From Candidatus Daviesbacteria bacterium RIFCSPHIGHO2_02_FULL_43_12 (GTDB lineage: Bacteria; Patescibacteriota; Microgenomatia; Daviesbacterales; UBA10151): DNA of 64,000 nucleotides. Positions 17,035 to 39,288 of the stretch are shown here, one piece after another. Numbering within the stretch: position 1 is the stretch's first letter; each line of letters opens with the position of its first letter. The stretch lies in assembly GCA_001776775.1 (NCBI GenBank), contig MFDD01000002.1:309344-373343 (forward strand), given 5' to 3'. The notes under the pieces were generated by a model. That model did no database searches. It was not told where the DNA came from and saw only the letters and a program-made list of their open reading frames with translations. The translations under genes and the position numbers were made by a program.

Positions 17035-17045
17035 CTTCAAGATTA

Positions 17046-18415: not shown

Positions 18416-19285
18416 ATGCCTTTACTAAAGTTTGTCAAAAGAAATGTCCGAAGAGCTCCGTACCAGGCCATTACTGCTTCGATGGTAATGTTTTTGACCT
18501 TTTTAGTGCTCTCTGTGTTTCTAATCTTGGCTTTAGGTTCCCAGCAAATCTTAAAATATTACGAAAGCAAACCCCAAGCCATCGCTTTTTTCAAAGACGG
18601 CACAGCCGATATCGATATAGCTGCTATTCGCCAAGAGCTGGAACTAACTGGCAAAGTAACCAACCTAAAATATATCTCCAAAGAGGAGGCTCTGCAGATA
18701 TACAAAGAGCGTAACAAAGATAAACCAATCCTCCTGGAGCTGGTAACTGCCAATATCCTGCCAGCTTCTCTGGAGATATCAGCCTTTACCCCTAAAGACC
18801 TCAAGCCTATCTCCGAAATTTTAAAAAAAGAGCCAGTGGTCGAAGAGGTAGTTTATCCGGAAGATGTAGTAGCGTCTCTTAGCAAAGCCACCACTATTAT
18901 CCGTTGGGTCGGGCTGGGGTTAGTCAGCTTTTTAATTGTCTTTTCGACCTTGGTCATCTTAATGGTCATCGGGTTCAAGATCCGTTTACGTCGGACCGAG
19001 ATCGAGACAATGCGCCTCCTGGGTGCTTCCAATTGGTTTATCCGAGCCCCTTTTATCTTGGAGGGTATCTTTTATGGAATCACCGGGGCTACCTATGCTT
19101 GGCTTGTCAGCTACGGGATACTTTGGTACTTTGGACCTTTTATCCAAAAGAATCTGGCTGATTTAAACCTCTATCCTGTTTCACCCTTAGTTATGGGTGG
19201 GCTATTGTTGATCGAGTTGTCAGTTGCAGTCATGATTGGGTTTGCTGGTTCCTACGCTGCTGCCAGACGATACTTGCGCCTCTAA
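18416..19285 (+). CDS. ftsX: cell division permease FtsX
   Basis: TM1, a periplasmic domain, then a 3-TM C-terminal bundle (FtsX fold), immediately after ftsE and before an M23 peptidase. Confidence 0.85.
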   Translation: MPLLKFVKRNVRRAPYQAITASMVMFLTFLVLSVFLILALGSQQILKYYESKPQAIAFFKDGTADIDIAAIRQELELTGKVTNLKYISKEEALQIYKERNKDKPILLELVTANILPASLEISAFTPKDLKPISEILKKEPVVEEVVYPEDVVASLSKATTIIRWVGLGLVSFLIVFSTLVILMVIGFKIRLRRTEIETMRLLGASNWFIRAPFILEGIFYGITGATYAWLVSYGILWYFGPFIQKNLADLNLYPVSPLVMGGLLLIELSVAVMIGFAGSYAAARRYLRL

Positions 19286-19291
19286 AAACTT

Positions 19292-20533
19292 ATGAAAGTT
19301 TTCAGAAAAATCACCTTGGTAATTTTTTGTCTGTTCGCGGTGATGACGATCCTGTGGTCGGCTGGTCGTCTATCTCAGTCCACGGACCAAGAGTTGCTTT
19401 TCCCACAAGTTGTCCAGGCTCAGTCGGTTGCTGAACTTGACCAGCAGCTAAGAGACAAAGAAGAGCAGATTCGCCAGGTAGAAAACCAACTCAAAGACAC
19501 CAAAAACCAAGAGCAAACCCTTAAATCTCAGCTTGGGGTGATCGATAATCAGACCAAATTAACCAACCTCAAAATAGAAGAGACTAACTTTAAAATTAAC
19601 AAGCTAAACAAAGAGATCAGTGAACTGGATGGAAGGCTGGATCGGATATCTTCGACCCTGGATACACTTTCCGAAGTGCTATTAAACATGATTATAAAAA
19701 CATATAAATATTCCAATACTACCCCCATTGATCTGATGTTTTCGTCAAATGGTTTCGGTGATTTGATCAGAAGAACCAAATATATCGAGACTATCCAAGC
19801 TGAAGAAAAAAAATACCTCTATCAACTCCAGGCAACAAAGTCTTTGTATAACGACCAAAAAACTGACAAGCAGACCCGCCAGGCAGAAGCAGAAAAATTA
19901 AAAAAGGATTTAGTAAAATATCAAACCGAATTAGATTTGCAGAAAAAAGCCAAAAATGAGCTGCTTAAAGTAACCCAAAATGACGAGTCAAAATTTCAGG
20001 CATTGCTTATCAAGTTGCGCGCTGATACTGAATCTATCTCCCGGGCTTTAGGCAATAAGGGTGTCAAACTAGGTCCGGTCAACAAAGGGGATAGGATCGC
20101 CTCCGTGGGAAACTCAGGCTGTTCAACCGGTCCGCATTTACATTTTGAAGTCATGACTCCAGCCCATGTCGAGGACGGAAAAATTATCGGTAAAGAAAAT
20201 AAGGTTGACCCCAAGCCTTATATAGATTCGGGGAAATTTACTAAGCCTACCCAACGTTATAGTGGCAATGATTGTAGCAATAGTAACAGTTGCCATATAG
20301 GAGACATTACTACTCATTTTGGTCAGACTTATTATATTTTTAGTTCGGGAGGATCGGTCCATAATGCGTTGGATATTGCCGATTATTACGGAGCGGATAT
20401 TTATGCGGCGGAAAGTGGAACAGCCTATACCACTCAAGACAGCAGCGCTTGTTCTATCACTGGAACTGTCGGTAAAGGTGTCTACATCGATCATGGTAAC
20501 GGCATCGTGACCCTCTACTGGCATATCCCCTAA
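19292..20533 (+). CDS. M23 (LytM) family peptidase with N-terminal coiled coil (EnvC/PcsB-like FtsEX partner)
   Basis: Signal/TM segment, a roughly 200-aa heptad-rich coiled coil, and a C-terminal M23 domain with CSTGPHLHFEV (HxH) and the HxxxD region. Confidence 0.8.
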   Translation: MKVFRKITLVIFCLFAVMTILWSAGRLSQSTDQELLFPQVVQAQSVAELDQQLRDKEEQIRQVENQLKDTKNQEQTLKSQLGVIDNQTKLTNLKIEETNFKINKLNKEISELDGRLDRISSTLDTLSEVLLNMIIKTYKYSNTTPIDLMFSSNGFGDLIRRTKYIETIQAEEKKYLYQLQATKSLYNDQKTDKQTRQAEAEKLKKDLVKYQTELDLQKKAKNELLKVTQNDESKFQALLIKLRADTESISRALGNKGVKLGPVNKGDRIASVGNSGCSTGPHLHFEVMTPAHVEDGKIIGKENKVDPKPYIDSGKFTKPTQRYSGNDCSNSNSCHIGDITTHFGQTYYIFSSGGSVHNALDIADYYGADIYAAESGTAYTTQDSSACSITGTVGKGVYIDHGNGIVTLYWHIP

Positions 20534-26154: not shown

Positions 26155-27360
26155 ATGATGAAAATTATAATTACCCTGTTTTTAATTCTCTCAATAACTC
26201 TGCAAATCCATAATATCTACACCTACCCACCGACTAGGGGATTCGATTCTTTGGGACATATTCAAAACATTACCAAAATGCAAAGTGAAAAAAGACTTCT
26301 CCTACCAGAGGAAACTCCGCAGTCATATCATCCTCCATTATATTATTTAGTAGCGAGCAGTTTCCCTAATCTAAAAATAGTTCAGTGGTTTAACTTTTTG
26401 GTACTTTTAACTTTGGGAGCTTTAGTTTTTTACTTTTTTAAAAGAGTTATTGACTCTACTATTCCGGCTCTATCTTTTTTACTATTAATGACTAGTTTGC
26501 CAGTAGTTGTGTATATGGTTCCTCAAATTAGTAATGAATTTTTTTCTGCAGTATTAATCAGTTCTACCCTAATATTTTATTACTTTAAAAGAGAGCTGCT
26601 TGGTAAATTTAGTAATCAAATTATTTTAGGAATGTTAGTGGGATTATCTTTACTATCCAAATCTACGGCATTGGTTTTTTTTCTCACCATTCTTATTGAT
26701 CAACTAATTTTAAATAAACTTGATTTTAAGAAATATTTTTTTTCTACATATCTACTATTTTTTTCGAGTCTACTAATCTCTGGATGGTTTTATATAAGAA
26801 ATTTTTTATACTACGGTAACCCACTTGTGACTAATATTGATTTTCCACAGTGGCAATATTTTCAAGAGCCAGGATTCAGAGATTTATTATTTTATATTAA
26901 CTTAAAACCCTTTTTATATTTTGATTTATTTCATGCACATTGGTATTCATTTTGGGGCGGAACTTTTTATAGTTTTTTCTATGATGGGTCAAACGCCCTT
27001 ATTCCCGTCCAGCAATTTTCTAAGGCTGGAGTTTTGCTGGTAATACAATCACTTCCTTTCGTTTATTTATTCTTCAAGGGTTGTATTCATACTTTACGGT
27101 CACCATCTTCGAGGGGTAAATTTTTTTTACTTTATATAAGTTTACTTTTCATGGCCTATTTTTTTTATACCCTAAAACTACCGTTCTATTCCGCGGTAAA
27201 AGCAAGCTACCTGCTTTCCTTAGTTGTTCCTTTTACTTACTTTGTTAACAAAGGTTTAGAAAAATCTCTCGTACTAAAAGCGGCTTTCCCTTTTTATGTT
27301 TGTATCTATACACTTGTCGTTATAAAGAATTTTTGGATACAGACTTACTGGATGCGATGA
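26155..27360 (+). CDS. GT-C-like polytopic membrane protein (ArnT/PMT-like), 401 aa
   Basis: More than 10 TM helices, about 27% GC, and a periplasmic loop after TM1. No soluble domain. Confidence 0.45.
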   Translation: MMKIIITLFLILSITLQIHNIYTYPPTRGFDSLGHIQNITKMQSEKRLLLPEETPQSYHPPLYYLVASSFPNLKIVQWFNFLVLLTLGALVFYFFKRVIDSTIPALSFLLLMTSLPVVVYMVPQISNEFFSAVLISSTLIFYYFKRELLGKFSNQIILGMLVGLSLLSKSTALVFFLTILIDQLILNKLDFKKYFFSTYLLFFSSLLISGWFYIRNFLYYGNPLVTNIDFPQWQYFQEPGFRDLLFYINLKPFLYFDLFHAHWYSFWGGTFYSFFYDGSNALIPVQQFSKAGVLLVIQSLPFVYLFFKGCIHTLRSPSSRGKFFLLYISLLFMAYFFYTLKLPFYSAVKASYLLSLVVPFTYFVNKGLEKSLVLKAAFPFYVCIYTLVVIKNFWIQTYWMR

Positions 27361-28781
27361 GACCAAAACTTTTAAGCTCCTATCTTTTATTAACTCTTTT
27401 GGTACTCGGACTATTTACTGTTTTTTCTTTTAACCTTCAAGCTAGCTATTTACTATCCTCGGATTTTTCCAGGGATGTAGACCAGGCTTTAAAGATTACC
27501 CAGGGGCACTTAACAATTGTCGGGCCCTGGCTTAATTTTAAAGGTCTTTTAGCGGGGCCTTATTATTACTATTTTTTAAGTATTCCTCTTTTTCTCACCT
27601 CTGCCAATCCAAATAGCACCCTTTTTGTTAATGCTTTGATGTTTGCCCTTTCTTTGGGATTTTTTTTCTTACGAATGCAGAAAGAAACTACTGGTTTAAA
27701 AGGTCTTTTAGCAACTCTGAGCTTAGCATTCAGCTTTTCTTTTATACTGGCAGCCAGAACACCTGGAAATGGTTTCTCTTATCTACCTTTACTGCTACTA
27801 GTTTTGACAGATTTTTACACTACCAAAGAATATAGTTTCAAACAGGTAGGTTTACTCGGAATCTTTTCTGGTTTACTTGTTAATACTCATCCTATTTCAA
27901 GTTTTGTATTAGTTCCGATCTTTATTTATTTTCTCTTCAAGAATCGACTGCAGTTTTTAGTTATATGCTTGGGATTATCCCTGACTTACCTTCCGCTATT
28001 GCTCTTTGAACTTTTACATAATTTTCAAATTCTGAAAAGTTTTATAACTCCGGATTTTAATCAAACTAATAGTTTGGGGAACTTTTCGTCTCACCAGTCT
28101 ATTTTTTTAGTATTAAAATTAAATATCCAAACTATTTTTGTATTTTTAGATAGACAATTTATCCTACCTAGTATTTTAACAATCATTTCAATTATTACTT
28201 TCTCAGTAATAACATTTAAAAAATCTCAGTTATTTATAATCTTTCATCTTTTATGTAGCTTAGTATTATTCATTGTCCTGTTACCCAAGACTGCCGAGTT
28301 TCACTACTCACTGCCCTTTGGACTACTGATCCTTTTTTTATTTGCCTTTGTCATCGCTCGATCTAGTTTATATCTACTTTTAAGTTTAATTATTATTTTA
28401 GAAATATTTTTCTTTCCCTTTGATCTTTTCAAACCATCTGCTCGAAACTTCGTTACTATCGAGAAAAGAGTTAATTTTATTCTAGCTCAAAATATTATCG
28501 ATAAAGAGCCATCTCTTAATGTCATAAGATTTTCTGACTCTAACAGCTTTTTACCCATTGGACAGGAATACCGATTTTTTCTAAGGAGAGCTGGCTACAA
28601 GGTAGACTCCGAATATGAATATCCCAAGTCAAAGCAATTAGTTATTTTCGCCGAGTACCCTCAGTTTGATATCACTAAATTCCGTACCTGGGAAACTAGT
28701 CAATTTGGAAATGACTACTTAAGGAATTATAAGCAATACACGCTTGAAGAAACTTCAATCTATGTAGTCAAGAAATTTTAA
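27357..28781 (+). CDS. GT-C-like polytopic membrane protein, about 475 aa
   Basis: A polytopic N-terminal region plus a C-terminal soluble domain. The start is placed at the ATG at 27357 (MRPKLLSSYLL), which forms an ATGA overlap with the upstream stop. The ORF track began it earlier at 27300. Confidence 0.45.
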   Translation: MRPKLLSSYLLLTLLVLGLFTVFSFNLQASYLLSSDFSRDVDQALKITQGHLTIVGPWLNFKGLLAGPYYYYFLSIPLFLTSANPNSTLFVNALMFALSLGFFFLRMQKETTGLKGLLATLSLAFSFSFILAARTPGNGFSYLPLLLLVLTDFYTTKEYSFKQVGLLGIFSGLLVNTHPISSFVLVPIFIYFLFKNRLQFLVICLGLSLTYLPLLLFELLHNFQILKSFITPDFNQTNSLGNFSSHQSIFLVLKLNIQTIFVFLDRQFILPSILTIISIITFSVITFKKSQLFIIFHLLCSLVLFIVLLPKTAEFHYSLPFGLLILFLFAFVIARSSLYLLLSLIIILEIFFFPFDLFKPSARNFVTIEKRVNFILAQNIIDKEPSLNVIRFSDSNSFLPIGQEYRFFLRRAGYKVDSEYEYPKSKQLVIFAEYPQFDITKFRTWETSQFGNDYLRNYKQYTLEETSIYVVKKF

Positions 28782-28783: not shown

Positions 28784-31700
28784 TCATTTAACAATTCTTC
28801 TAGCGATGTTTCTTAGAATTCGTTTGTCCTGTGCGGATAGTGCTAAGACACTCTCAAAATGATTTGGGTGAGCTAGGTAGTTTCGAACTCTAGCTGCCGC
28901 TATAGATTCCTGCAAAGATCTTCTAGGATCTGCTAATTGTGCTGGTGACAGTTTGATTAGCTTAAAACCACTCCTTAGCCCATCTCCCCAAGAAACCCAG
29001 TTTAAAAAACTATATGCTCTTTGAATTTCATCAAACTCAAGACTATTCCAAAAACTGTCTGTTTGAATTGGTAAAGCTGGCAGATTTTCTGGAGTGATAG
29101 TCTTAGTTTCAAAACCGGCCCCAGTAATATTTTCCTCAGCTAAAGTAACTGCTTTTCTGGATCTATAATTACTTATCCGTCTATAGGCCAACCACCCTAA
29201 TCCTAATCCAACTACCCCCTCAGACAACTTTAATCCCAGACCAAGCCAGTCAAAAGGTTTTTTTATCTCAGCCTCGGGAGTCCTTGAATCTCTCGGAAGC
29301 ATTGGATTTTGGCTGCGGTCTTTGCTCAGAGCATCTAGAAATCGCCGCGTTTCGGCATCTATCTGATCTTGATCAACATTAGGGGTTGGGTCATTTTTAC
29401 CTGACTCCCCTGCCTCATCAACTACAAAGCCATGAGCGTTTAGGTTGTCCAAAGAGCCTCTTTCTCTTTCACCATTTACTCCATACAGATATCCCCGGGC
29501 TCTATTTAAGTACTGACCAGGTCTATCAACTAAAGAGCTGGATAAAACCGCTCCCAAACTACAGACATCACAATTACATCCCTCAAGCTTAAAGACCGCA
29601 TTAAGTTTTTCCTCCGGCGAATTTGCGGCTTCTATCTGTTTTTTGTGTTCACTGCTTATCTGATAGTGGTAATGTTTTTTAAAGTATCCCGCTATTTGCT
29701 CGTAGCTAATTTGTGAAGAGGTCCCGCTAGCCAAAAGATTCATCAACTTAGTAAGAGCTTCGGGCGAAAGTTTTGAAGTATCAATAGGCTCCACTTTAGC
29801 TACAGCCTTCACTTGAGGTGTCTCCGCTGGAAATAATCCTACAGTTACAGTAGCTCCCTTAGTTACATCCGCCTGACCCAACTCCACCTCAATAGTACCG
29901 TCGTTAAATTGATAAGCTCGATAGGGCAAAATATTTCCTGATAGATCCTGCACCCTAAGTAAGCCGACCTGGGTGTGGTTTAATATGGGAATACGCAGAG
30001 TTTTATCGCCTACCACTGTCCATAGTTCCACATGGGGAACTTCAGAGGTTTCAGTAGGGTAACTCACTAGTTTTTGCCCTTCTCGATTAGCGATCCACTT
30101 AGCTCCGACCATCTCATGACTGGTGCTTTGAGTATAGTACCCAGCCGCGCTCATTTGATGAGGGATTACTGTCCAGCGCCGATCATAATCGTCACCTGTC
30201 TCCGCGAGCATTTCACTTGGCAGCGAAACAGTATCCGGCATGATTTCGCCATACTTTATAGAGGATCCCTCTGGGGGTGTCATCTGTACAGCTCCTTGGG
30301 CCAATCCCCAAATCAAGGCAAAAGGTAGAGCGCGTAAAGCCCACCAACGCGCGTGTCTGGCAAAAGTTCTTCGTCCATTAACTAAAGATGCCAGATTTTG
30401 TCTTTGCTCCCTAACTTTAAGCCCGAGTACGGATAAAGACTCCTCTATCTCTTTTTGGGTTGGGGATTCTTGATTAACTAAACGAGGTTGTCTGGAAGCG
30501 AGCAGAGTATCCAAAGCATAAGCCAATCGACCTGCTTGCATTTGCCTTTTGTCTAATGGTCGGATTTCAGGCTGATCATGAGTTAGATAGTAATTATGGG
30601 GTTGTCTAAAAGTTCCTGGGGCAATTTCATCAGGTAACTCAGGTGTTCTTTTTAAGATCTCTTCCGCGGATAAGCCTTGGACACCAAACAAACGACCAAG
30701 ATCAATTCGTTGGGGGGGTTCGGTAAAATTAAGAGCAAACAGTTTATGATCATTACCTCGCTGCGGTTGAATTATTGATCTATTAGTTCTTCGAGCAGTA
30801 GGATATGCTGAGTCTGCCCCTATATAAACAGGTTGAGAGGTCACTAGGTAGCTTTCTAAAGCACGCATAATTAGGCGGCGTAGATGTCGCTTGACTTCTG
30901 TTTCATATCTATCTACCTCAGCGCGGGGCCGGGGAGAGTCTGCTTCTTCAACTAATGCGTCTAACTTTGGATCTCCTAATTTACGATGCATCCCAAAGTA
31001 CGCTGTTTTAAAAAATGGGTCACTGTATAGCTCCTGGGGACGAAAACTTAAGCGTCTAAACTCTGCTGGCGTTAGCAGGGCCACCTGTTCCTGAGTATCT
31101 TTAAGAGTAGCCTCTTTGTGACTTAATAGTTGGGCTAGCGGAAGATGGGGGAAATCCTGAATATATTTACTTAAACCAGGTGGAGTCCTTGTGGGCAATA
31201 TTACACCCATATAGTCCACCCAATTTAGGTCAAAGTCTGCAGTAATAGGGGCCAGGGAAGAATCATAAAGCTCCGCCAGCAAATTTTCCCGTTGCATCAC
31301 AGAGCTCTTTTTGAGACGACCCGAAGACCGTAGCTCGGGCATCCTGACGAGCACAACTTGTCCTGCTGTTTCCAGAACTCTAGCCTCTGACCCTTTTTCA
31401 GGATCAGCTGGTTTTAGCTCAATCGGCTGACCCTTATAAACGACAATCTCTCCTTTAAGACCGAACTGCTGGTTTTCTATTTTCCCTCTTCGAAAGCTTC
31501 TATCAATAGGCTGTTTGGGGGGTAATTTACCCTGGTTCAAACGGTGTTCTTGATAGGCAAAGGCAGCGGTAGCAGCTACACTTCCCACTACTAAGGCAGC
31601 CCAAGGTCGGGGTCCTATTTGAGAAGCTGCAATAAATGAATTTAGCACTCCCCAGCCAATTGTGGCTCTGAGGGGAAACTCTTTCAAGGCCACCACAAAA

Positions 31701-31810
31701 TCATCAATTCTATCCTTTGTATGATAGGTGATCCATTTAGGATAATCCGATCTGCCTGGACCTCGATGGAATCGGTCCGTATAACCACGTTTAGGTAAAG
31801 TTTCTGTCAT
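28784..31810 (-). CDS. giant membrane protein, paralog A (1008 aa), unknown function
   Basis: N-terminal TM pair, a mid-protein TM (ARWWALRALPFALIWGLAQGAV), a C-terminal TM (FDWLGLGLKLSEGVVGLGLGWLAY) and large soluble regions. It shares full-length similarity with the 960-aa protein, including GCNCDVCSLGAVL and FLNWVSWGDG blocks. Confidence 0.6.
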   Translation of the reverse strand: MTETLPKRGYTDRFHRGPGRSDYPKWITYHTKDRIDDFVVALKEFPLRATIGWGVLNSFIAASQIGPRPWAALVVGSVAATAAFAYQEHRLNQGKLPPKQPIDRSFRRGKIENQQFGLKGEIVVYKGQPIELKPADPEKGSEARVLETAGQVVLVRMPELRSSGRLKKSSVMQRENLLAELYDSSLAPITADFDLNWVDYMGVILPTRTPPGLSKYIQDFPHLPLAQLLSHKEATLKDTQEQVALLTPAEFRRLSFRPQELYSDPFFKTAYFGMHRKLGDPKLDALVEEADSPRPRAEVDRYETEVKRHLRRLIMRALESYLVTSQPVYIGADSAYPTARRTNRSIIQPQRGNDHKLFALNFTEPPQRIDLGRLFGVQGLSAEEILKRTPELPDEIAPGTFRQPHNYYLTHDQPEIRPLDKRQMQAGRLAYALDTLLASRQPRLVNQESPTQKEIEESLSVLGLKVREQRQNLASLVNGRRTFARHARWWALRALPFALIWGLAQGAVQMTPPEGSSIKYGEIMPDTVSLPSEMLAETGDDYDRRWTVIPHQMSAAGYYTQSTSHEMVGAKWIANREGQKLVSYPTETSEVPHVELWTVVGDKTLRIPILNHTQVGLLRVQDLSGNILPYRAYQFNDGTIEVELGQADVTKGATVTVGLFPAETPQVKAVAKVEPIDTSKLSPEALTKLMNLLASGTSSQISYEQIAGYFKKHYHYQISSEHKKQIEAANSPEEKLNAVFKLEGCNCDVCSLGAVLSSSLVDRPGQYLNRARGYLYGVNGERERGSLDNLNAHGFVVDEAGESGKNDPTPNVDQDQIDAETRRFLDALSKDRSQNPMLPRDSRTPEAEIKKPFDWLGLGLKLSEGVVGLGLGWLAYRRISNYRSRKAVTLAEENITGAGFETKTITPENLPALPIQTDSFWNSLEFDEIQRAYSFLNWVSWGDGLRSGFKLIKLSPAQLADPRRSLQESIAAARVRNYLAHPNHFESVLALSAQDKRILRNIARRIVK

Positions 31811-31866: not shown

Positions 31867-33603
31867 TTAGGAAGGAAAGGATCGGGAGAACCTGATCCTG
31901 CTGGCTAAGTAGCTGGGAAAACATACCCAAAGCTCCAAGATTATGATCCCCAAAGCTGCCAGAGAGATATAATTACTCCAAGATCTAATGGGAGTGTTTT
32001 GCAATTTCGCTTCAATGATATGACTTCCTGGGCTAATCTGTACTCCTAAGAAGTGATACTTACTGTCCTCTCGGATCACGGTATCTTGGCCGTCGACTTG
32101 TACCCTCCAACCAGGAAATTGGTGGGTATTGATCGTAAAAGTTATAGGCGTGAGGGTGTCTATAGCAAAGCGGAAGTTGGTGGCTGTAGAGCTCAATGTC
32201 CGGACTATCGCCTGATCGGGCGTAACCGTCCACTTTGGAGAGTCCCATTCGGGAAGCTCATTGACCCCTTTTGGCATATACCCCGGTTCAATAAAAGCCT
32301 CCTCGCGGGTTAATTTGTGAAGAGGCCAGCTGGACAGAGGAGCATTTAAAGCCTTTTCCTCAAAAAAAGTCTGCGGCTGCAAAAAAGGTAGAGAAAAAAA
32401 TAGGGTGGCCATAAAAATCATGGCGGTAAAGATGATCTGATGCTTTTTATTTAATAAAGAGATAATTGCTGCTCCTAGCAAAGCTTGAGCTATTGGTAAA
32501 ACCATCAGAAATCGCCAGGGAAACTGGATAAACCGCAGGATCTCGAGGTGCTCCCAGAACAAAAGCGATCCCTTAAAAGTAAAGAAGTAACCATAACAGG
32601 CTACTCCAAGCCAAAAAATCAGCTTATTTAAAATAGGCAACGACAGTTTTTTACAGATAATCCAAATAGCTACAGCTAAGCTGCTAACGAGTATCCAGGT
32701 TGACAAAAGACCTAAACTGATAGATCTGGTAAAAATCTCTCCCCACCAGGATCCGTTATACCCCCAAATATATGAAACGGGGAGTAAGGGGTCGGAAAAG
32801 TTTTTATGAAAATCAAAAGCCTGCTTGGTTAAATCATTAATATTAATAAATTTTAGCTCAAAGAGGGCGGGCAGAAGATAAAAGGCGGCTAGGGTTACAC
32901 CGATAATAAACGATAGCGTAAGTTTACCTAGGTTAGGCAGAGAGGATACTTTTGCCGTATAGAGAGTAAGCAAGCTAAATCCTAAAATAACTGGCAGGCA
33001 GATTATAGTAGCCGGCAGATGAGAGATGATCATTAGCCCAAAAACCAAAGAGATCATCGGCCCAAAGACAGCTTTTGACTTTTGCAGCAGTTGCTCAGTC
33101 AACCAGAGTAAGACGGGCAGCAGCGAGATTACAGTAAATTCCGGAAAGGACCCTCGGATAAAAATATCCAGGATTAAATAGGGGGCGAATCCATAGAGTA
33201 AGGCTGCCGTTGAGGCAGGTAAAACCCCGTATTTTTTGGACAGTAAAAATATAAAAAACGTGCTTACTATCCATAACAGATAGACGGTTATTTTTAGAGC
33301 AAACACTGAGGGTAAAAAAACAAAAAAAAGAGCCGTTAAATAGTAAAACCCAACTTGATAAAAGTTAAAAAGAGGCATGCTGTAACCGTTTTGCACCCAG
33401 TCAACCCACCTAACAGGAAACTGGCCTTCCTGCAATGCCTGAAAAAATATTTTTGCATAAGTTATATGGGCAAAAGCGTCATGGCTGGAAGGAAGTCCAC
33501 TTTGAAACCAAAACACCCCTCCAGATATGATCAGGACAGACGTTAAGATAACTAGTAGGTTACTTAAAAAACTTTCCTGCAAATATTTAAGTAAACTTTT
33601 CAT
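31867..33603 (-). CDS. polytopic GT-C/YfhO-like membrane protein (578 aa)
   Basis: About 13 TM helices in the N-terminal 400 aa with a periplasmic HDAFAHITYAKIFFQALQEGQFPVRW loop, plus a C-terminal beta-rich soluble domain. Its start overlaps the stop of the 960-aa gene. Confidence 0.5.
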   Translation of the reverse strand: MKSLLKYLQESFLSNLLVILTSVLIISGGVFWFQSGLPSSHDAFAHITYAKIFFQALQEGQFPVRWVDWVQNGYSMPLFNFYQVGFYYLTALFFVFLPSVFALKITVYLLWIVSTFFIFLLSKKYGVLPASTAALLYGFAPYLILDIFIRGSFPEFTVISLLPVLLWLTEQLLQKSKAVFGPMISLVFGLMIISHLPATIICLPVILGFSLLTLYTAKVSSLPNLGKLTLSFIIGVTLAAFYLLPALFELKFININDLTKQAFDFHKNFSDPLLPVSYIWGYNGSWWGEIFTRSISLGLLSTWILVSSLAVAIWIICKKLSLPILNKLIFWLGVACYGYFFTFKGSLLFWEHLEILRFIQFPWRFLMVLPIAQALLGAAIISLLNKKHQIIFTAMIFMATLFFSLPFLQPQTFFEEKALNAPLSSWPLHKLTREEAFIEPGYMPKGVNELPEWDSPKWTVTPDQAIVRTLSSTATNFRFAIDTLTPITFTINTHQFPGWRVQVDGQDTVIREDSKYHFLGVQISPGSHIIEAKLQNTPIRSWSNYISLAALGIIILELWVCFPSYLASRIRFSRSFPS

Positions 33604-33605: not shown

Positions 33606-36488
33606 TTAGGTATACAGCTCAACCAGGCCACTGACTTTATGTAGCCCACCACGAGCATAGTTAGCTAAGGCCCGCACTTTTCTTCTTTGACACTCCTCGA
33701 ACCCCTGGTCAGATTCTTTTAGTGATGGCTTCTTAAGGTACTGGCCTAACCTTTGCCGATAGCTACCTTGCATAAGATCATTTAGCAAAGCCTGCTTATC
33801 TCTGGCAGAGTAAACAGCTGGTGAGAATGGCCTATCTTCTCCCCAGGAGATCCAGTCAAGAAAATGTTTCATCGCTTCTAGTTCCTGGCGACTAAACCGA
33901 TCGCGAACCTTTGCATCCATAAAGGGACCAAGTGTCTTTTGGGTAAAATTGCTTTGCAGCTCGTAAATTAGAGCAGCTGCACAGAGTGACCAAATAGTCA
34001 AACTTGTTCCCATAAGTACCTTACCAGTTAGATCTATGGTCTTTTCAAAAAGACTAGCGATATATACCTTTGAGGCAAGTTCATCCCTTTGTCTGGCCCA
34101 TTCGCTTGCATCAGGAACTTGTTTGCTTCTTTCGATATATTGTCTGGTAAAGGCATCCCTCGCTAAGTCTTTAGGAGTAGCGTCATAGATAGCCCTACCT
34201 CTCATTGTATACAAGTGTAGGTCACTAATTCGCAGAGGATAGCCTCCTCTTGGTGCAGGATTATCTAATCCTACACCGTAGCCTATTGCCAGGTTTAAGG
34301 AAGGATAGTTGGGAGATAAGAAATGCGCCACAAGAACAGCTTCGATATTACAAAGCTCACAATTACAACCCGGAAGATGGTTAACGATGTTCAAAAAAGC
34401 CGCTGGGTTAGTTTGGTGCTTAACCTCACTGGTGTTTTTGGGATTATTATTATAGAGGTGTCCTTCGGCAATCACATCTACTACACTCTGATAATAATCG
34501 CCTGTACGAATATATCTCTCGGCAACTGCAGTAAAGAGACTCTCCGCCTCTTGACTAAGTCCATCCGGATTTAACCGATTCAACGACCCATCAGCATGAA
34601 CTTGGCCCTGATCAGCCGGTTTGAGACTGATAGTGATATCCGCGTATGAATCTTTTAAATTCGGAGTTAGCGGAATATACAAACCAACTGTCCCATCTTT
34701 ATACATAGTATTCGTAACTTGTATAGTGTTATTTTTGCTATCCGATACTCTGACCGCTTCAACAACGGTATTTGGCTTAATAGGAATTTTTATTTGAGGC
34801 AGATCAACCTTACCCACCCGCAGTCTGGTCTGCAGACTGAAGTGAGGACTACTGGGGTCTGGCTCAGTCGGATAAGCAACCAGTTTATCGATAGTATCTT
34901 CATCGACCCAACCCCGACCTTTGTCTAAAAAGTGGGCTGTTGATGTTACATAATAACCTCGCGGATCTGGCTCTCCTGTTGTAGTGATCCACCAATCTAT
35001 CTGATTTGCAGATAAAGAACTTTGCCCACCTTCCAATAATTTAACGGCCGTACTTTGTGAATCACGATAGTTTGGTGGACTAAACCATTCAAAACCTTTG
35101 AAGCCAAAATGCATTGCTCCGGCTAAACCCATCATCAATACGGCCTGTCTGGCTACTTTGGGTAGAAGGCTAATTTTTTTACCTGTTGTACCCTGAAGAT
35201 CTATCTCCCCTTGCAGAGGATTACTTTTAGCTTCTTTAGAATATTGGTGTAAAAGGGCCTGGACTTGAGCTTGGGCAGGTGGCTTTCTCTCGAGCAGTTT
35301 TGCTGCATCGCTCTGGTTGATGAATTCGTGAGCTGCAAAGGCTACCTGAGCTCTATTAAAAGCTTCCGGACTCTCCACAACTCTTTCTGGCGGTATATCT
35401 CCTAAACCCACAGCTCTGGATAATATTCGCGGGGCAGATATCAATCCCCCTGTGGTCGGTACTGATTGCACCATCAGCTGTCCGTCATAGCGGCGATAGA
35501 CCCGGGTTGTTACAGCGGTCTTGGTGCGTAAAAAAGGTATATCTAGTCTTCGAACCAAAGAACTACTACTTCCTTCTTCGACATAGCGAACAATTAGTCC
35601 TTGGAGATGTTTTCTTAACCTTTCTTGTGCATTTTGAGCCTCTTCTCCAGGGTTCGCAACTTCCAATTGTTGCATTAGCGCATTTACCCTACTATCACCT
35701 AGCATTGCGCAGGCTTGCTGCAAGATCGCTTGTTTAACAATGGTAAATTCCTCTAATCCAGTTTTATGCACTAAGGTTACTCGGCGCTGAGGATCAATTA
35801 AACTAAAATCTTTACCCAATACCAGAGCCTGTCTGGTTAAAGAGTTCTGCGTTTTCAGGGCTGCCTCAACTAGAGGCGGGGCTTGGGGAGGGACCTCTAT
35901 CCCTAACCAGTCAATTCTTCGGGAGCTTAATCTTGGCTTGACTTGAGCAATAATACCATCATAAACACTTAACCATAATTTTGAATCAGCCTCTGTACCT
36001 TCTTTCTTTAAATTGAGACGGTTCGGCCATAACCCATCGGCTAAATTTTTGAAGAATCGCCTAGCCCCTTTGGGCTCTAAGCCCTGCAAAACCGGAAGTT
36101 TAAGGAAATAAATATTATCCCCTCTTCGCAACCTTTTGTCTCCCAAGACAACATCATTACCGGCGTATGCTAAGTGATAGCCTTTAAATCCGAGTTTAGC
36201 GTCTCGATCGGTATCTTTGCGAGCTGAGTGCAAAGCCCTTACACCCGCGCTTGCCAACCTAATACCGGTATAACCAGGCACCAGTAGCGTTGTCGCCAAT
36301 GCCGCAGTCAAACCTGAATCTAGGGAAACTCCTGCTCTATCCAAAAAATAGTAGGCCAAAAAAGGCAGCGAGCTCAGGGTCACGGCTGCCAGACCACGGC
36401 TAAATATAGCATCTCGGTAATCAAACTGATCGTGTGTTAGATAACGAGGTTTAGGCAGAGATGACCTCTCCCGATTCTTTCCAGACAT
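33606..36488 (-). CDS. giant membrane protein, paralog B (960 aa), unknown function
   Basis: Same architecture as paralog A. Alignable blocks include SKLWLSVYDGIIAQV against ENLLAELYDSSLAPI, GYYVTSTAHF against GYYTQSTSHE, GCNCELCNIEAVL against GCNCDVCSLGAVL, and FLDWISWGED against FLNWVSWGDG. Confidence 0.6.
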   Translation of the reverse strand: MSGKNRERSSLPKPRYLTHDQFDYRDAIFSRGLAAVTLSSLPFLAYYFLDRAGVSLDSGLTAALATTLLVPGYTGIRLASAGVRALHSARKDTDRDAKLGFKGYHLAYAGNDVVLGDKRLRRGDNIYFLKLPVLQGLEPKGARRFFKNLADGLWPNRLNLKKEGTEADSKLWLSVYDGIIAQVKPRLSSRRIDWLGIEVPPQAPPLVEAALKTQNSLTRQALVLGKDFSLIDPQRRVTLVHKTGLEEFTIVKQAILQQACAMLGDSRVNALMQQLEVANPGEEAQNAQERLRKHLQGLIVRYVEEGSSSSLVRRLDIPFLRTKTAVTTRVYRRYDGQLMVQSVPTTGGLISAPRILSRAVGLGDIPPERVVESPEAFNRAQVAFAAHEFINQSDAAKLLERKPPAQAQVQALLHQYSKEAKSNPLQGEIDLQGTTGKKISLLPKVARQAVLMMGLAGAMHFGFKGFEWFSPPNYRDSQSTAVKLLEGGQSSLSANQIDWWITTTGEPDPRGYYVTSTAHFLDKGRGWVDEDTIDKLVAYPTEPDPSSPHFSLQTRLRVGKVDLPQIKIPIKPNTVVEAVRVSDSKNNTIQVTNTMYKDGTVGLYIPLTPNLKDSYADITISLKPADQGQVHADGSLNRLNPDGLSQEAESLFTAVAERYIRTGDYYQSVVDVIAEGHLYNNNPKNTSEVKHQTNPAAFLNIVNHLPGCNCELCNIEAVLVAHFLSPNYPSLNLAIGYGVGLDNPAPRGGYPLRISDLHLYTMRGRAIYDATPKDLARDAFTRQYIERSKQVPDASEWARQRDELASKVYIASLFEKTIDLTGKVLMGTSLTIWSLCAAALIYELQSNFTQKTLGPFMDAKVRDRFSRQELEAMKHFLDWISWGEDRPFSPAVYSARDKQALLNDLMQGSYRQRLGQYLKKPSLKESDQGFEECQRRKVRALANYARGGLHKVSGLVELYT

Positions 36489-36537: not shown

Positions 36538-39288
36538 CTATGATCGATGCTGAGAGGCGCCAATTAAACCACATTTTTTCCACTTTAATCCTGATCCACA
36601 AGGACAAGGGTCGTTACGACCGATTTTTTGATGAGTTAATTGTCCCTTTTCGCCGTAGTTTTGAGTACTAATCGATCCTCCGGCTCGTTCAATAGTTACT
36701 TTTGTTCCTACATAAGGGAGGTCTTTAACGACCGGTTTCTCTTTAATCTCCAGTTGATCGATCTCTCGGGTTAGGTGCCCCACTTCTTCTAAAAGATTCT
36801 CTTCTTCCAACGCTTCTTGATGAATCTCCAGCGCTTTATCCAGGTTAGCCATGGGTTGATTAGAGGGCAGCTGATTATTAACTGAAATTTTGTAAATACG
36901 GTGCACAACATCAGAATCGATAGTGTCCATTAGTTGGGAGAACAGGTCAAAGGCTTCCTTTTTATATTCCACTAGCGGATCTCTTTGCGCATAACCCCGC
37001 AAACCGATCCCCACCCTTAGATCATCAATCGTATCCAGATGCTCGAGCCACAAGGTATCGATGGTATTAAGGTAAACAAAACTCTCCATCTGGCGACAGA
37101 CGTCCGCACCTAACTCTTTTTCTCTCATCTCGTAGACGTCTGCTGCGATTTTGGTTAGCTGCTCAGTGATCGCTTCTGATGAATCTATCTGTCTAAGCTG
37201 TCCCACTAAACCCTCTCTGCTGGTGGTATCAAAGGGGATAATGGTCACAAATTCCTCGGCAATTTTTTCGATATCAGCTACCTCAGTTGAGTGGATCGTC
37301 ACGATACTTGCTATCTCTTTTTGAATCTTTTCCTGGATTTTTTCTTTGGTAATCCCCGAGTTTGTGGCCATTGCCTGTAAAATCTGGTTCCTGACTCCAT
37401 AGACAATTTGGCGTTGTTGATTCATCACATCGTCATACTCCACAGTATGTTTACGGGCATCAAAGTTGTGGCCCTCAACTTTTCGCTGGGCCCCCTCAAT
37501 TGCTTTCGAAACAAGCCCATTTTCAATCGGCATATCATCAGGGATCTTCAAAAACTCCATTACCCGGGCAACCTGTTCACCTCCAAAAATACGCATTAGA
37601 TCATCTTCAAGGGAAACATAAAATTTACTTGCTCCCGAGTCTCCTTGACGTCCTGAACGACCCCGGAGCTGGTTATCAATTCTGCGGGATTCATGGCGCT
37701 CAGTCCCCACCACATATAGACCTCCCAGTTCGTTAACACCGACAGAAAGCTTAATATCCACCCCTCTTCCCGCCATATTGGTCGCTACAGTCACCGCTCC
37801 TTTCTCACCGGCTTTAGAGATAATCTCCGCCTCTTTTTCGTGATTTTTAGCATTCAACAAAGCATGGGAGATACCTTTCTTCTTGAGCAGCTTAGATAAA
37901 AATTCGTTTTTTTCAATCGAAGTGGTGCCAACCAGTACCGGTTGTCCGGATTCATGCAGCTTAGCTACATCCTCGACCACGGCGGTATACTTAGCCAGCT
38001 CAGTCTTGTAGATACTGTCCGGAAGATCTTTACGGACCATTGGGCGGTTAGTAGGAACCACTATGACGTCTAATTTGTAGATTTTATGAAATTCTTCGGC
38101 TTCTGTGGCGGCCGTACCAGTCATGCCGGAAAGCTTTTCGTACATCCGGAAATAGTTTTGAAAAGAGATAGTGGCCATCGTTTGAGATTCTTGTTGAATA
38201 GTCACTCCTTCTTTTGCCTCAATAGCCTGGTGCAGACCTTCTGAATAACGCCTTCCCGGCATTAATCTGCCCGTAAACTCATCGACGATAATTACTTCTC
38301 CGTCTTTGACGACATAATCTTTGTCCTTTTGAAAAAGAGTTTTGGCTTTAAGTGCTTCTTCGATATGATGCAGAGTCGAAAAATCTTTCTCATACAAATT
38401 ATCTATCCCCAGCAGCTTTTCTATCTTCAAAGTGCCTGCATCGGTCAAGTGAACAGTGCGCATCTTTTCATCCAAAATATAATCTTGAGCAGACATTTTT
38501 TCGATCAATTTGGCAAACTGAGCATATTTTTCGGTTGGCTCCTGAGCAGGAGCGGAGATAATGAGCGGAGTCCTGGCTTCATCAATCAAAATCGAGTCCA
38601 CCTCATCAACAATGGCAAAATAGTGGCCCCTCTGGACCTGCGATTCCAAAGAAAGAGCCATGTTATCGCGCAGGTAATCAAAACCAAATTCGTTATTGGT
38701 GCCATAAGTAATATCCGCACCATAAGCTTCCTTTCGGGTAATCGGACGCAGATGCTTTAATCTCTCGTCAGTGGTGTCTTTGTCGATATAATCCGGGTCA
38801 TAGAGAAAGGCTTGTTCGTGTATGATCGTGGCGCAGCTTATTCCTAAGGCATAGTAGACCGGACCCACCCAACCACATTCCCGCCGGGCTAAATAATCAT
38901 TGACAGTTATAATATGTATGCCACGATCGGTAAGGGCATTTAAGTAGGCCGCGGGGGAAGCTGAAAAGGTCTTTCCTTCTCCGGTTTTTTGTTCAGATAT
39001 TTTACCTTCATGTAAAGCCGCTGCAGCGATCAGCTGAACATCAAACAGTCTGGCATCATTTACTCTTTTGGAAGCTTCCCTGACAACGGCAAAAGCCTCC
39101 GCTAAAAGTTGATCCAAGGTTGCACCTTGCAAATGCTTCTTTTTTAGCTCTTCAGTCCGTTTCTTGAGCTGGGAGTCAGAAAGCTTCGCTATCTCTTCCT
39201 CTAGCAGATTTACCTCTTTGACCTTTTGAGCAAAGCGCCGGAGTGCTTGCTGGTTAGAATCGATTAGTTTAGTAAATAAATTAAGCAT
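36538..39288 (-). CDS. secA: preprotein translocase ATPase SecA
   Basis: 916 aa with the DEAD-like motor, preprotein cross-linking domain and C-terminal zinc-binding tail CPCGSGLKWKKCG. Confidence 0.95.
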   Translation of the reverse strand: MLNLFTKLIDSNQQALRRFAQKVKEVNLLEEEIAKLSDSQLKKRTEELKKKHLQGATLDQLLAEAFAVVREASKRVNDARLFDVQLIAAAALHEGKISEQKTGEGKTFSASPAAYLNALTDRGIHIITVNDYLARRECGWVGPVYYALGISCATIIHEQAFLYDPDYIDKDTTDERLKHLRPITRKEAYGADITYGTNNEFGFDYLRDNMALSLESQVQRGHYFAIVDEVDSILIDEARTPLIISAPAQEPTEKYAQFAKLIEKMSAQDYILDEKMRTVHLTDAGTLKIEKLLGIDNLYEKDFSTLHHIEEALKAKTLFQKDKDYVVKDGEVIIVDEFTGRLMPGRRYSEGLHQAIEAKEGVTIQQESQTMATISFQNYFRMYEKLSGMTGTAATEAEEFHKIYKLDVIVVPTNRPMVRKDLPDSIYKTELAKYTAVVEDVAKLHESGQPVLVGTTSIEKNEFLSKLLKKKGISHALLNAKNHEKEAEIISKAGEKGAVTVATNMAGRGVDIKLSVGVNELGGLYVVGTERHESRRIDNQLRGRSGRQGDSGASKFYVSLEDDLMRIFGGEQVARVMEFLKIPDDMPIENGLVSKAIEGAQRKVEGHNFDARKHTVEYDDVMNQQRQIVYGVRNQILQAMATNSGITKEKIQEKIQKEIASIVTIHSTEVADIEKIAEEFVTIIPFDTTSREGLVGQLRQIDSSEAITEQLTKIAADVYEMREKELGADVCRQMESFVYLNTIDTLWLEHLDTIDDLRVGIGLRGYAQRDPLVEYKKEAFDLFSQLMDTIDSDVVHRIYKISVNNQLPSNQPMANLDKALEIHQEALEEENLLEEVGHLTREIDQLEIKEKPVVKDLPYVGTKVTIERAGGSISTQNYGEKGQLTHQKIGRNDPCPCGSGLKWKKCGLIGASQHRS

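What the first reader, a model, noticed from the sequence alone, without database searches (positions are those of the whole stretch)
29561..29581. Invariant GCNC[DE]xC cysteine cluster shared by the two giant paralogs
Paralog A carries LEGCNCDVCSLGAVL, encoded at 29561-29581 as gga tgt aat tgt gat gtc tgt on the minus strand. Paralog B carries LPGCNCELCNIEAVL at the equivalent position, about 250 residues from the C-terminus. Surrounding sequence has diverged strongly, so the strict retention of three cysteines in a C-x-C-x-x-C pattern points to function. That function could be a metal-binding site, a redox site or a catalytic site, perhaps a thiol protease or transglutaminase-like nucleophile. 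This is the best handle for assigning a function to the system.
Basis: seen in the sequence. Interest (0 to 1): 0.65.

Follow-up and report, generated by a model that had tools for sequence, protein, structure and literature searches.

The report
Divergent TgpA-like transglutaminase-fold active site
The three-cysteine motif is the active site of a very divergent, unannotated membrane-anchored transglutaminase/cysteine-protease-fold enzyme of Patescibacteria: the middle cysteine is the probable catalytic nucleophile and the two outer cysteines are an optional pair, most likely a disulfide clamp.

Summary
GCNCDVC is encoded at 29581-29561 (-) in a 1008-aa ORF, and GCNCELC sits at the aligned position of a 960-aa paralog. 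These are the only three cysteines in paralog A.

An exhaustive profile search found 81 family representatives. Named members are Daviesbacteria, Levybacteria and a Patescibacteria MAG. None reaches Pfam's cut-off and A and B have no NCBIfam hit.

Only the middle Cys (C747) is near-invariant (79/81). It goes with His793 (80/81) and Asp807 (79/81). The outer cysteines C745 and C750 are both present (60) or both absent (21), never one alone.

A confident AlphaFold model (pLDDT 93) puts C747 at the first residue of a helix and H793 in a strand. Its best PDB match is the periplasmic domain of P. aeruginosa TgpA, then a transglutaminase-like putative cysteine protease. Flanking membrane helices place the domain outside the cell.

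"Three invariant cysteines" is not true of the family. The outer pair is best read as a disulfide clamp; this is inferred, not shown.

This is a new, divergent variant of a known kind, of moderate interest.

The parts
28784..31810 (-). Paralog A, 1008 aa (NCBI 'hypothetical protein A2631_03215', Candidatus Daviesbacteria). Architecture: N-in, TM hairpin, ~385-aa cytoplasmic domain, TM, ectodomain (beta-sandwich + transglutaminase-like core), TM, ~110-aa helical C-terminal domain.
29561..29581 (-). The reported motif G744-C745-N-C747-D-V-C750. C747 (29572-29570) is the proposed nucleophile. C745 (29578-29576) and C750 (29563-29561) are the co-varying flanking pair.
29432..29434 (-). His793 of paralog A ('NAHGFVV'), the proposed general base. 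It is invariant in 80/81 family representatives and lies in a beta-strand of the model.
29390..29392 (-). Asp807 of paralog A ('NDPTP'), the proposed third triad residue (79/81, plus one Glu). The D-x-T-P signature matches TgpA 'VDPT' and human TG2 'LDPTP'.
29303..30187 (-). Ectodomain of paralog A (residues 542-836): a beta-sandwich followed by a helical part and the transglutaminase-like core. Modelled at pLDDT 93.3, pTM 0.91.
30290..30376 (-). Membrane helix before the ectodomain (residues 479-507). The segment before it is basic (3 K/R : 1 D/E) and the segment after it is acidic (1:4).
29123..29245 (-). Long helix after the ectodomain (residues 856-896), containing the hydrophobic stretch LGLGLKLSEGVVGLGLGWLAY followed by RRISNYRSRK.
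31535..31711 (-). N-terminal membrane-helix hairpin (residues 34-63 and 69-92) with basic flanks on both sides.
33606..36488 (-). Paralog B, 960 aa, 22% identical to A. Same motif (G707-C708-N-C710-E-L-C713 at 34370-34350), with His758 (34217-34215) and Asp769 (34184-34182).
31867..33603 (-). Context: a 578-aa polytopic membrane protein between the paralogs. It gives a sub-threshold match to PTPS_related (E 2.8e-5, 23.2 bits, cut-off 26.4). Its start lies 2 nt after the stop of B. It is not a conserved partner of the family elsewhere.

Best explanation
Paralogs A and B are polytopic membrane proteins. Their extracytoplasmic domain is a highly divergent relative of the periplasmic module of TgpA, that is, a beta-sandwich plus a transglutaminase/papain-like core.

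The middle cysteine of the motif (C747 in A, C710 in B) sits at the N-terminus of a helix. It is proposed to be the thiolate nucleophile of a Cys-His-Asp triad with H793/D807 (H758/D769 in B). By analogy with the transglutaminase-like superfamily, it would form a thioester acyl-enzyme with a glutamine side chain or a peptide/isopeptide carbonyl of a cell-envelope substrate. The acyl group would then pass to an amine (cross-linking) or to water (hydrolysis).

The outer cysteines (C745 at -2, C750 at +3) are an optional, all-or-none pair. They take the places of the Gly and the aromatic residue of the canonical G-x-C-x-x-[FY] motif. They most likely form a disulfide that clamps the loop onto the nucleophile helix on the outside of the cell.

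Shown: the conservation pattern, the pair covariation, the fold match and the membrane-helix layout. Inferred: catalysis, the disulfide, the substrate and the topology.
For: (1) Family and conservation. An exhaustive profile search found 81 representatives, 63 of them at E<=1e-10. C747 is conserved in 79/81, H793 in 80/81, D807 in 79/81 (+1 Glu), T809 in 79/81 and G773 in 80/81. C747 and H793 are two of only three invariant columns (with G557) in a 59-sequence full-length alignment.

(2) Structure. The domain model has pLDDT 93.3 and pTM 0.91. A helix begins exactly at C747 (domain residue 206) and H793 (252) lies in a strand.

(3) Fold. The best PDB match is 6g49, the TgpA periplasmic domain (E 1e-4, prob 1.00, TM 0.51, 295 aligned columns against a 288-residue target). 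Next is 3isr, a transglutaminase-like putative cysteine protease. 3isr is also the top hit for the full-length model.

(4) Sequence bridges. Member P0070 hits Pfam Transglut_core at E 0.001 (19.8 bits). P0067 hits TgpA_N at E 0.006. P0070 carries 'GIPADYTTGY...SHAWV...LDST', against TgpA 'GIPARVVAGY...AHAWV...VDPT'. Its alignment to the real TgpA core puts C747 on the TgpA cysteine of G-F-C-A-H-Y, C745 on Gly(-2) and C750 on Tyr(+3). Spacings are C-to-H 46 and H-to-D 14 in A, against 44 and 16 in TgpA.

(5) The pair. States are CCC 60, xCx 19, none 2, and never one flank alone. A rough NJ tree requires at least 10 independent joint losses. Ectodomains contain exactly 3 Cys (59/60) or exactly 1 (17/20). 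No other column co-varies with the pair (MI 0.81 against 0.39 for the next best).

(6) Topology. Membrane helices flank the domain, with basic residues on the cytoplasmic sides.

(7) Context. Peptidoglycan or cell-division genes lie near members in most informative contigs: ftsE-ftsX-pcsB-like (window, L001, L018), murB (L015), yceG/mltG (L007), M23/LysM (L019).
Against: No family member reaches Pfam's Transglut_core cut-off: 0 of 52 at E<=0.1, and the best hit is 19.8 bits against a cut-off of 23. Family profiles find nothing in PDB by sequence. hhalign against single TG2 or TgpA cores is not significant.

The NJ tree is poorly resolved, so 'at least 10 losses' is approximate. The gene-neighbourhood association has no background control. 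Activity, substrate and disulfide are all untested.
Confidence: 0.72

Rival explanations
1. Redox switch. C747-x-x-C750 is a thioredoxin-style CxxC at a helix N-terminus. The nucleophile is reversibly locked in a disulfide with C750 (or C745), with the third cysteine acting as the resolving partner. Enzyme activity is then gated by extracellular redox state. This overlaps with the best explanation, because it shares the same triad and differs only in the role of the outer pair.
For: C747 is the first residue of a helix and C750 is one turn along it. The outer cysteines are dispensable in a quarter of the family, as expected of a regulatory add-on. From my own knowledge, redox control by a cysteine trio is known in human TG2, at a different site.
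Against: The strict all-or-none behaviour of C745 with C750, and the odd cysteine counts of 3 or 1, are most simply explained by those two pairing with each other and leaving C747 free. No coordinates were available to compare SG-SG distances.
Confidence: 0.15
2. Metal-binding cluster. The three cysteines, perhaps with His793, chelate Zn, Cu or Fe. The site is then structural or sensory rather than catalytic.
For: C-x-C-x-x-C spacing resembles short metal-binding motifs, and a conserved His lies nearby in sequence.
Against: 19 of 81 members keep only the middle Cys yet retain His793, Asp807 and the rest of the core. No fourth ligand column co-varies with the outer pair. The fold and motif register are those of a Cys-His-Asp enzyme. 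An invariant Asp-x-Thr is not a typical metal ligand set.
Confidence: 0.06
3. Inactive scaffold. The domain is a pseudo-enzyme, as band 4.2 is among animal transglutaminases. The cysteines are kept for folding only.
For: No activity data exist. Paralog A departs from the family consensus next to the triad (S751/L752 instead of N-T, HGF instead of HAF, and a longer His-Asp loop). One member has Ser and one has Leu at the nucleophile position.
Against: Near-perfect retention of all three triad residues across sequences that are about 20% identical is the signature of catalysis. Known pseudo-enzymes of this fold have lost triad residues.
Confidence: 0.04

Closest known systems
TgpA (PA2873) of Pseudomonas aeruginosa; PDB 6G49; Pfam architecture TgpA_N (PF11992) + Transglut_core (PF01841)
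   Same: Both are inner-membrane proteins whose extracytoplasmic module (beta-sandwich plus transglutaminase-like core) lies between membrane helices and is followed by one more helix and a cytoplasmic tail. TgpA is the best fold match over the whole 295-residue ectodomain. The motif order and spacing are the same: G-x-C-x-x-Y / GY / HAW / DPT. Sub-threshold TgpA_N and Transglut_core hits occur in two members. The TgpA periplasmic domain has transglutaminase activity in vitro, TgpA is critical for viability, and the authors suggest a cell-wall-linked role (PMC3507681).
   Different: TgpA has 668 aa and five N-terminal membrane helices. This family has about 900-1000 aa, with two helices, a ~385-aa cytoplasmic domain and one more helix before the ectodomain. 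There is no significant sequence similarity. The canonical Gly(-2) and aromatic(+3) are replaced by a cysteine pair, or by small residues. No DUF4129 match is found in the tail. Named members come from Patescibacteria (Daviesbacteria, Levybacteria and an unclassified MAG), not Proteobacteria.
3ISR, transglutaminase-like putative cysteine protease of Cytophaga hutchinsonii
   Same: It is the second-best fold match for the ectodomain (E 1.6e-3) and the best for the full-length model. It carries the G-V-C-R-D-F-A...GIPAR...GY core.
   Different: It is a soluble protein of about 290 aa and its function is not characterised. TM-scores are low (0.23-0.35).
Animal transglutaminases (TG2, factor XIII)
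   Same: They share the Cys-His-Asp order and the D-P-T-P signature around the catalytic Asp. Paralog A has NDPTP and TG2 has LDPTP.
   Different: There is no detectable profile similarity beyond that nonapeptide. Animal enzymes are soluble, multi-domain and Ca-regulated.
Papain (C1) family 'C-G-S-C-W' motif
   Same: This is an analogy only, from my own knowledge. In papain, the cysteine three residues before the nucleophile Cys25 forms a structural disulfide (Cys22-Cys63), so a disulfide cysteine right next to the nucleophile has precedent.
   Different: It is a different family. In papain the partner cysteine is distant in sequence. Here both partners bracket the nucleophile within six residues.
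CPR-C4 protease (PDB 7OB6), the other transglutaminase-like-superfamily enzyme described from the Candidate Phyla Radiation
   Same: [quoted passage not shown]
   Different: CPR-C4 is a small soluble homodimer with a Cys-His-Leu(carbonyl) triad related to vasohibins (PMC9108980). It does not appear among the 50 listed PDB fold matches of this domain.

Membership tests
Transglutaminase-like superfamily (Pfam PF01841 Transglut_core; papain-like fold) | Conserved Cys, His and Asp in that order | tested here: met
   C747 is conserved in 79/81, H793 in 80/81 and D807 in 79/81.
Transglutaminase-like superfamily (Pfam PF01841 Transglut_core; papain-like fold) | Cys at the N-terminus of a helix, His and Asp on following strands | tested here: inconclusive
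   The helix starts at C747 and H793 lies in a strand.
Transglutaminase-like superfamily (Pfam PF01841 Transglut_core; papain-like fold) | Match to the PF01841 profile at or above its gathering score (23 bits) | tested here: not met
   A and B give no hit at E<=1. None of 52 members hits at E<=0.1. The best of 10 further members is P0070 at 19.8 bits, E 0.001.
Transglutaminase-like superfamily (Pfam PF01841 Transglut_core; papain-like fold) | Fold similarity to solved members | tested here: met
Transglutaminase-like superfamily (Pfam PF01841 Transglut_core; papain-like fold) | Cys-dependent acyl-transfer or hydrolase activity | not testable with these tools
   Requires biochemistry.
TgpA family (TgpA_N + Transglut_core + C-terminal tail) | N-terminal block of five membrane helices (TgpA_N / DUF3488) | tested here: not met
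   The model shows two helices, a ~385-aa soluble domain and one more helix. The only TgpA_N hit is sub-threshold and covers profile positions 219-327, outside the first ~180 residues that hold TgpA's five N-terminal helices (PMC3507681).
TgpA family (TgpA_N + Transglut_core + C-terminal tail) | Extracytoplasmic beta-sandwich plus transglutaminase core bracketed by membrane helices | tested here: met
   The outside location is inferred from helix positions and charge bias, not measured.
TgpA family (TgpA_N + Transglut_core + C-terminal tail) | Canonical G-x-C-x-x-[FY]-A nucleophile motif | tested here: not met
   The family has C-x-C-x-x-C-N-[TS] (60/81) or [SAK..]-x-C-x-x-[AS] (19/81).
Cysteine-rich metal-binding motifs (zinc knuckle / zinc ribbon-like) | Three to four ligand residues conserved together across homologs | tested here: not met
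   Two of the three cysteines are absent in 21/81 members. No co-varying fourth ligand exists.
Thioredoxin-like CxxC oxidoreductases | Thioredoxin fold around the CxxC | tested here: not met
   No thioredoxin-fold protein appears among the 50 listed fold matches; the top matches are transglutaminase-like. There is no Pfam thioredoxin-type hit. The CxxC is lost in 21/81 members.

The most novel reading that the evidence does not exclude
The family may be a Patescibacteria-specific transmembrane enzyme. In this reading, an extracellular transglutaminase-type active site gated by a three-cysteine redox or disulfide device is mechanically coupled, through the membrane helices, to a large uncharacterised cytoplasmic domain (about 385 aa) and a conserved C-terminal domain. 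It would cross-link or trim cell-wall or surface proteins in step with cell division (the FtsEX-PcsB neighbourhood), or with attachment to a host cell. That would be a new kind of envelope-remodelling machine in bacteria with minimal genomes.
Probability: 0.12. Interest if true: 0.6.

Novelty: new variant of a known kind. Interest (0 to 1): 0.36.

Why it matters
The result turns two 'hypothetical proteins', and a family of at least 81 sequence clusters with no database annotation, into a testable enzyme hypothesis. It names a specific nucleophile, base and acid. It predicts an extracellular location and gives a solved structure (TgpA) as a template.

TgpA itself is critical for viability in P. 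aeruginosa, yet its substrate is unknown. A second, very distant lineage with the same ectodomain, often encoded near cell-division and peptidoglycan genes, strengthens the idea of a conserved envelope function. It also offers a comparative handle.

The all-or-none cysteine pair bracketing the nucleophile is a clean natural experiment: about ten independent joint losses bearing on how the active-site helix of this fold is stabilised.

The finding is not a new enzymatic principle.

Tried and rejected
Searches that found nothing:
- All three word-indexed homolog searches (A, B and the 59-sequence profile) returned only the query proteins themselves. The family was found only by the exhaustive profile search.
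- Pfam, NCBIfam, PADLOC and PHROGs gave nothing for A or B.
- PDB sequence searches with A, with the full-length profile and with the ectodomain profile gave no meaningful hit.
- The fold search against viral structures gave nothing.

Weak or non-significant comparisons:
- hhalign of the ectodomain profile against the human TG2 core (verified identical to PDB residues 272-402) aligned only the D-x-T-P nonapeptide.
- Against the real TgpA core, hhalign gave a spurious match.
- A sub-clade profile aligned in the correct register but at P = 0.017 only.

Tools that failed or were unavailable:
- The fixed DNA pattern scan of species-representative genomes returned 7 loci. Only one (L007) was examined, and it is a family member. 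The others were taken as chance matches from their record titles (non-Patescibacteria) and my estimate of about 13 random hits. The scan therefore says little about how widespread the family is.

Ideas considered and rejected:
- A metal cluster and a thioredoxin-like centre (see rival explanations).
- A defence-system or phage origin (no hits, and the neighbours are housekeeping genes).
- A conserved operon partnership with the intervening membrane protein. None of the other inspected contigs (L001, L013, L015, L016, L018, L019) shows a similar large unannotated membrane protein directly next to the family gene.
Full report
OBSERVATION

The minus strand at 29581-29561 reads gga tgt aat tgt gat gtc tgt, which is G-C-N-C-D-V-C. 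It lies in ORF 28784..31810(-), 1008 aa, called paralog A here. ORF 33606..36488(-), 960 aa, called paralog B, has G-C-N-C-E-L-C at residues 707-713.

BLASTP aligns A and B over 645 columns at 22% identity (E 2e-28), with the two motifs in the same columns. There is no third copy in the window. C.C..C occurs four times in all six reading frames, and two of those are these sites.

Paralog A has only three cysteines in 1008 residues, all in the motif. B has six, three of them in the motif. The coordinates, the sequences and the 'about 250 residues from the C-terminus' statement (263 and 252) are all correct.

WHERE THE WINDOW COMES FROM

A and B are identical to NCBI 'hypothetical proteins' of Candidatus Daviesbacteria (Patescibacteria/CPR) metagenome-assembled genomes.

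The local gene order on the minus strand is secA (36538-39288), then B, then a 578-aa polytopic membrane protein (31867-33603), then A. The membrane protein gives a sub-threshold PTPS_related hit, and its start lies 2 nt after the stop of B. Two PMT_2 glycosyltransferase-like genes lie on the other strand just beyond A.

THE FAMILY

Word-indexed searches found only the queries themselves. An exhaustive HMMER search with the A+B profile against 1.84 billion cluster representatives found 81 proteins at E<=1e-3. Of these, 63 are at E<=1e-10 and 33 at E<=1e-30. Most are 900-1000 aa long.

The few members with a source name are Daviesbacteria, Levybacteria and a 'Patescibacteria group' MAG. The rest come from unnamed metagenome assemblies.

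No member reaches any Pfam cut-off. A and B have no hit in NCBIfam, PADLOC or PHROGs.

CONSERVATION OF THE MOTIF

Counts in the 81-sequence alignment:

| Residue (paralog A numbering) | Conserved in |
|---|---|
| C745 | 60/81 |
| C747 | 79/81 (one Ser, one Leu) |
| C750 | 60/81 |
| N751 | 63/81 |
| G773 | 80/81 |
| H793 | 80/81 |
| D807 | 79/81 (plus one Glu) |
| T809 | 79/81 |

In a 59-sequence full-length alignment with about 20% pairwise identity, the only invariant columns are G557, C747 and H793. The family signature is therefore one cysteine, one histidine 46 residues later and one aspartate 14 residues after that. It is not three cysteines.

The outer cysteines behave as a unit:
- 60 members have C-x-C-x-x-C, 19 have only the middle Cys, and 2 have none.
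- No member has only one of the outer two.
- On a rough neighbour-joining tree built without the motif columns, Fitch parsimony needs at least 10 changes of the pair state, with 'pair present' at the root.
- Within the ~295-residue ectodomain, members with the pair have exactly three cysteines (59 of 60). Members without it have exactly one (17 of 20).
- No other alignment column tracks the pair. Mutual information is 0.81 for the two columns with each other's state, against 0.39 for the next best column, which is not a potential ligand.

STRUCTURE

AlphaFold2 on the 59-sequence alignment gave a full-length model with mean pLDDT 77.9. It shows:
- helices 34-63 and 69-92;
- a mixed alpha/beta region at 100-478;
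- a helix at 479-507;
- a very confident region at 545-835 (block means mostly above 90);
- a long helix at 856-896;
- a helical C-terminal domain at 916-1007.

A model of residues 542-836 alone, built with 40 homologous domains, reached pLDDT 93.3 and pTM 0.91. It consists of a beta-sandwich (domain residues 5-120) followed by helices and a small sheet. A helix starts exactly at C747 (domain residue 206) and H793 (252) lies in strand 251-257. pLDDT is about 97 at the motif, so it is not in a disordered linker.

Charge bias supports a topology with the N-terminus inside (K/R: D/E counts):
- 7:4 before the first helix;
- 6:2 after the second;
- 3:1 before helix 479-507;
- 1:4 after helix 479-507;
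- 5:2 after the last hydrophobic stretch.

This places residues 100-478 in the cytoplasm, 510-855 outside, and the tail inside. The topology is an inference.

FOLD AND SEQUENCE LINKS TO KNOWN PROTEINS

Foldseek of the ectodomain model against PDB gives as best hit 6g49, the periplasmic domain of P. aeruginosa TgpA. The values are E 1e-4, probability 1.00, TM 0.51, and 295 aligned columns against a 288-residue target. The three chains of 3isr follow; 3isr is a 'transglutaminase-like enzyme, putative cysteine protease' of Cytophaga hutchinsonii. The full-length model also has 3isr as its top hit.

I obtained the real TgpA core sequence (6g49 chain residues 239-314) from a PDB search:

RSGFCAHYAGAMAFVLRAAGIPARVVAGYQGGELNPAGNYLLVHQFDAHAWVEYWQPEQGWLSVDPTYQ

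Its Cys-to-His spacing is 44 and its His-to-Asp spacing is 16, against 46 and 14 in paralog A.

Divergent family member P0070 reads RICNCNLCATRLALLAQRYGIPADYTTGY...SHAWV...LDSTPY. It aligns to the TgpA core with the middle Cys on the TgpA cysteine, the first Cys on Gly(-2), the third Cys on Tyr(+3), GY on GY, HAW on HAW and D-x-T on D-P-T. A sub-clade profile gives the same register, but at P = 0.017 only.

P0070 also hits Pfam Transglut_core at E 0.001 (19.8 bits, cut-off 23). P0067 hits TgpA_N at E 0.006, over the part of that model that lies beyond the five N-terminal membrane helices. Paralog A's NDPTP matches LDPTP of human TG2, the only stretch hhalign aligns.

At full-profile level there is no significant sequence similarity to PDB chains or to single TG2/TgpA cores. 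I therefore treat the family as a structural and motif-level relative of TgpA, not as a demonstrated PF01841 member.

WHAT IS KNOWN ABOUT TgpA

PMC3507681 describes TgpA as follows:
- It has 668 aa and six predicted membrane helices.
- Its periplasmic domain spans residues 180-544 and contains a PF01841 core at 396-467.
- The purified periplasmic domain has transglutaminase activity in vitro.
- The gene is critical for viability.

PMC10318531 lists it under Transglut_core among papain-like enzymes.

MECHANISM PROPOSED

C747 (C710 in B) is the nucleophile, activated by H793 (H758) and oriented by D807 (D769). It would form a thioester with a Gln side chain or a peptide/isopeptide carbonyl. The acyl group would then go to an amine or to water. 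This chemistry is taken from established knowledge of the transglutaminase-like superfamily and is not shown here. Whether the enzyme cross-links or hydrolyses cannot be decided from sequence.

C745 and C750 most likely form a disulfide. The reasons are:
- they are gained and lost only together;
- they need no third partner;
- the domain otherwise avoids cysteine, and the counts are 3 or 1;
- the domain is predicted to be outside the cell;
- they replace two residues of the canonical G-x-C-x-x-[FY] motif, at -2 and +3.

Papain's Cys22, three residues before nucleophile Cys25, is a precedent for a disulfide cysteine next to the nucleophile (my own knowledge). I could not measure distances in the model, so the disulfide remains an inference. 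I put it at about 0.6. I put the catalytic-triad reading at about 0.85.

RIVALS

- A redox switch using C747-x-x-C750 is compatible with the same fold. It is less simple given the strict C745/C750 coupling.
- A metal cluster is disfavoured. A quarter of the family lacks two of the three ligands while keeping His, Asp and everything else, and no fourth ligand co-varies.
- A pseudo-enzyme is unlikely given the triad conservation.

GENOMIC CONTEXT

No gene is a constant neighbour. However, envelope and division genes recur near family members:

| Locus | Nearby genes |
|---|---|
| Window | ftsE-ftsX-pcsB-like M23 (17636-20533), 8 kb from A |
| L001 | ftsE-ftsX-pcsB-like M23, one small gene away |
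| L018 | CtpB-like S41 peptidase, PcsB-like CHAP, FtsX, FtsE, directly downstream |
| L015 | murB adjacent |
| L007 | yceG/mltG two genes upstream |
| L019 | M23/LysM peptidase, 4 kb away |
| L013, L016 | Only housekeeping genes |

Without a background control this is a hint. It agrees with the cell-wall idea proposed for TgpA. The membrane protein between A and B, and the duplication itself, appear to be specific to this Daviesbacteria lineage.

NOVELTY AND SCORE

The chemistry and the fold are known, and membrane-anchored TgpA-type enzymes are known. Four things are new:
- an unannotated, very divergent Patescibacteria family;
- a different membrane and cytoplasmic architecture;
- the replacement of the canonical Gly/aromatic pair by an optional cysteine pair around the nucleophile;
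- the recurrent proximity to division and peptidoglycan genes.

I rate it a new variant of a known kind, with interest about 0.36.

Noticed in passing
window 36538-39288 (-), C-terminal residues of the 916-aa ORF: The SecA gene directly upstream of paralog B ends in ...NDPCPCGSGLKWKKCG..., the SEC-C-type cysteine cluster (weak PF02810 hit). By my own knowledge this is a zinc-binding motif. It makes a useful contrast with the catalytic C-x-C-x-x-C next door.
   Followed up: partly
window 61041-63884 (-): A ribonucleotide reductase large-subunit gene (947 aa) is interrupted by an intein with a LAGLIDADG homing-endonuclease domain (Intein_splicing, LAGLIDADG_3 and Hom_end hits at residues ~58-431).
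   Followed up: no
window 56612-60361 (-) and 44906-47272 (-): Two further large ORFs (1249 aa and 788 aa) have no Pfam match at E<=0.001. They are not related to paralogs A or B.
   Followed up: no
window 1897-3378 (-), 26155-27360 (+), 27300-28781 (+), 31867-33603 (-), with 383-5099 (-): Three large membrane proteins give PMT_2 hits and a fourth gives a PTPS_related hit. Only the first (1897-3378, 43.8 bits) is above Pfam's cut-off. They lie in one 64-kb window, next to genes with RmlD_sub_bind, GDP_Man_Dehyd/Epimerase and NTP_transferase domains (nucleotide-sugar synthesis). This suggests heavy surface glycosylation capacity.
   Followed up: partly
window 15967-20533 (+); L001 5230-8066; L018 13168-17170: A peptide-release-factor gene (PCRF/RF-1 domains), ftsE, ftsX and a PcsB-like hydrolase (M23 or CHAP) form a module. 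It lies within 0.1-8 kb of family members in three distantly related contigs. This could reflect a functional link or old synteny. There is no background control.
   Followed up: partly
family member P0015 (486 aa, fragment) and P0071 (674 aa): P0015 has Ser at the nucleophile position (V-T-S-S-I-A) with His and Asp intact, which could be a Ser-for-Cys nucleophile swap. P0071 has no cysteine at all and lacks His and Asp, so it is either a degenerate member or a false positive.
   Followed up: no
paralog A residues 100-478 (window 30377-31513, -) and 916-1007 (28787-29065, -): The predicted cytoplasmic ~385-aa alpha/beta domain and the helical C-terminal domain (conserved A-Y-x-F-L-x-W-x-S-x-G near residue 935) match no Pfam family and no PDB fold. 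Their role is unexplained. One possibility is coupling of the outside enzyme to a cytoplasmic partner.
   Followed up: partly
window 5351-6265 (-): A 304-aa protein with a CAP (cysteine-rich secretory protein) domain.
   Followed up: no
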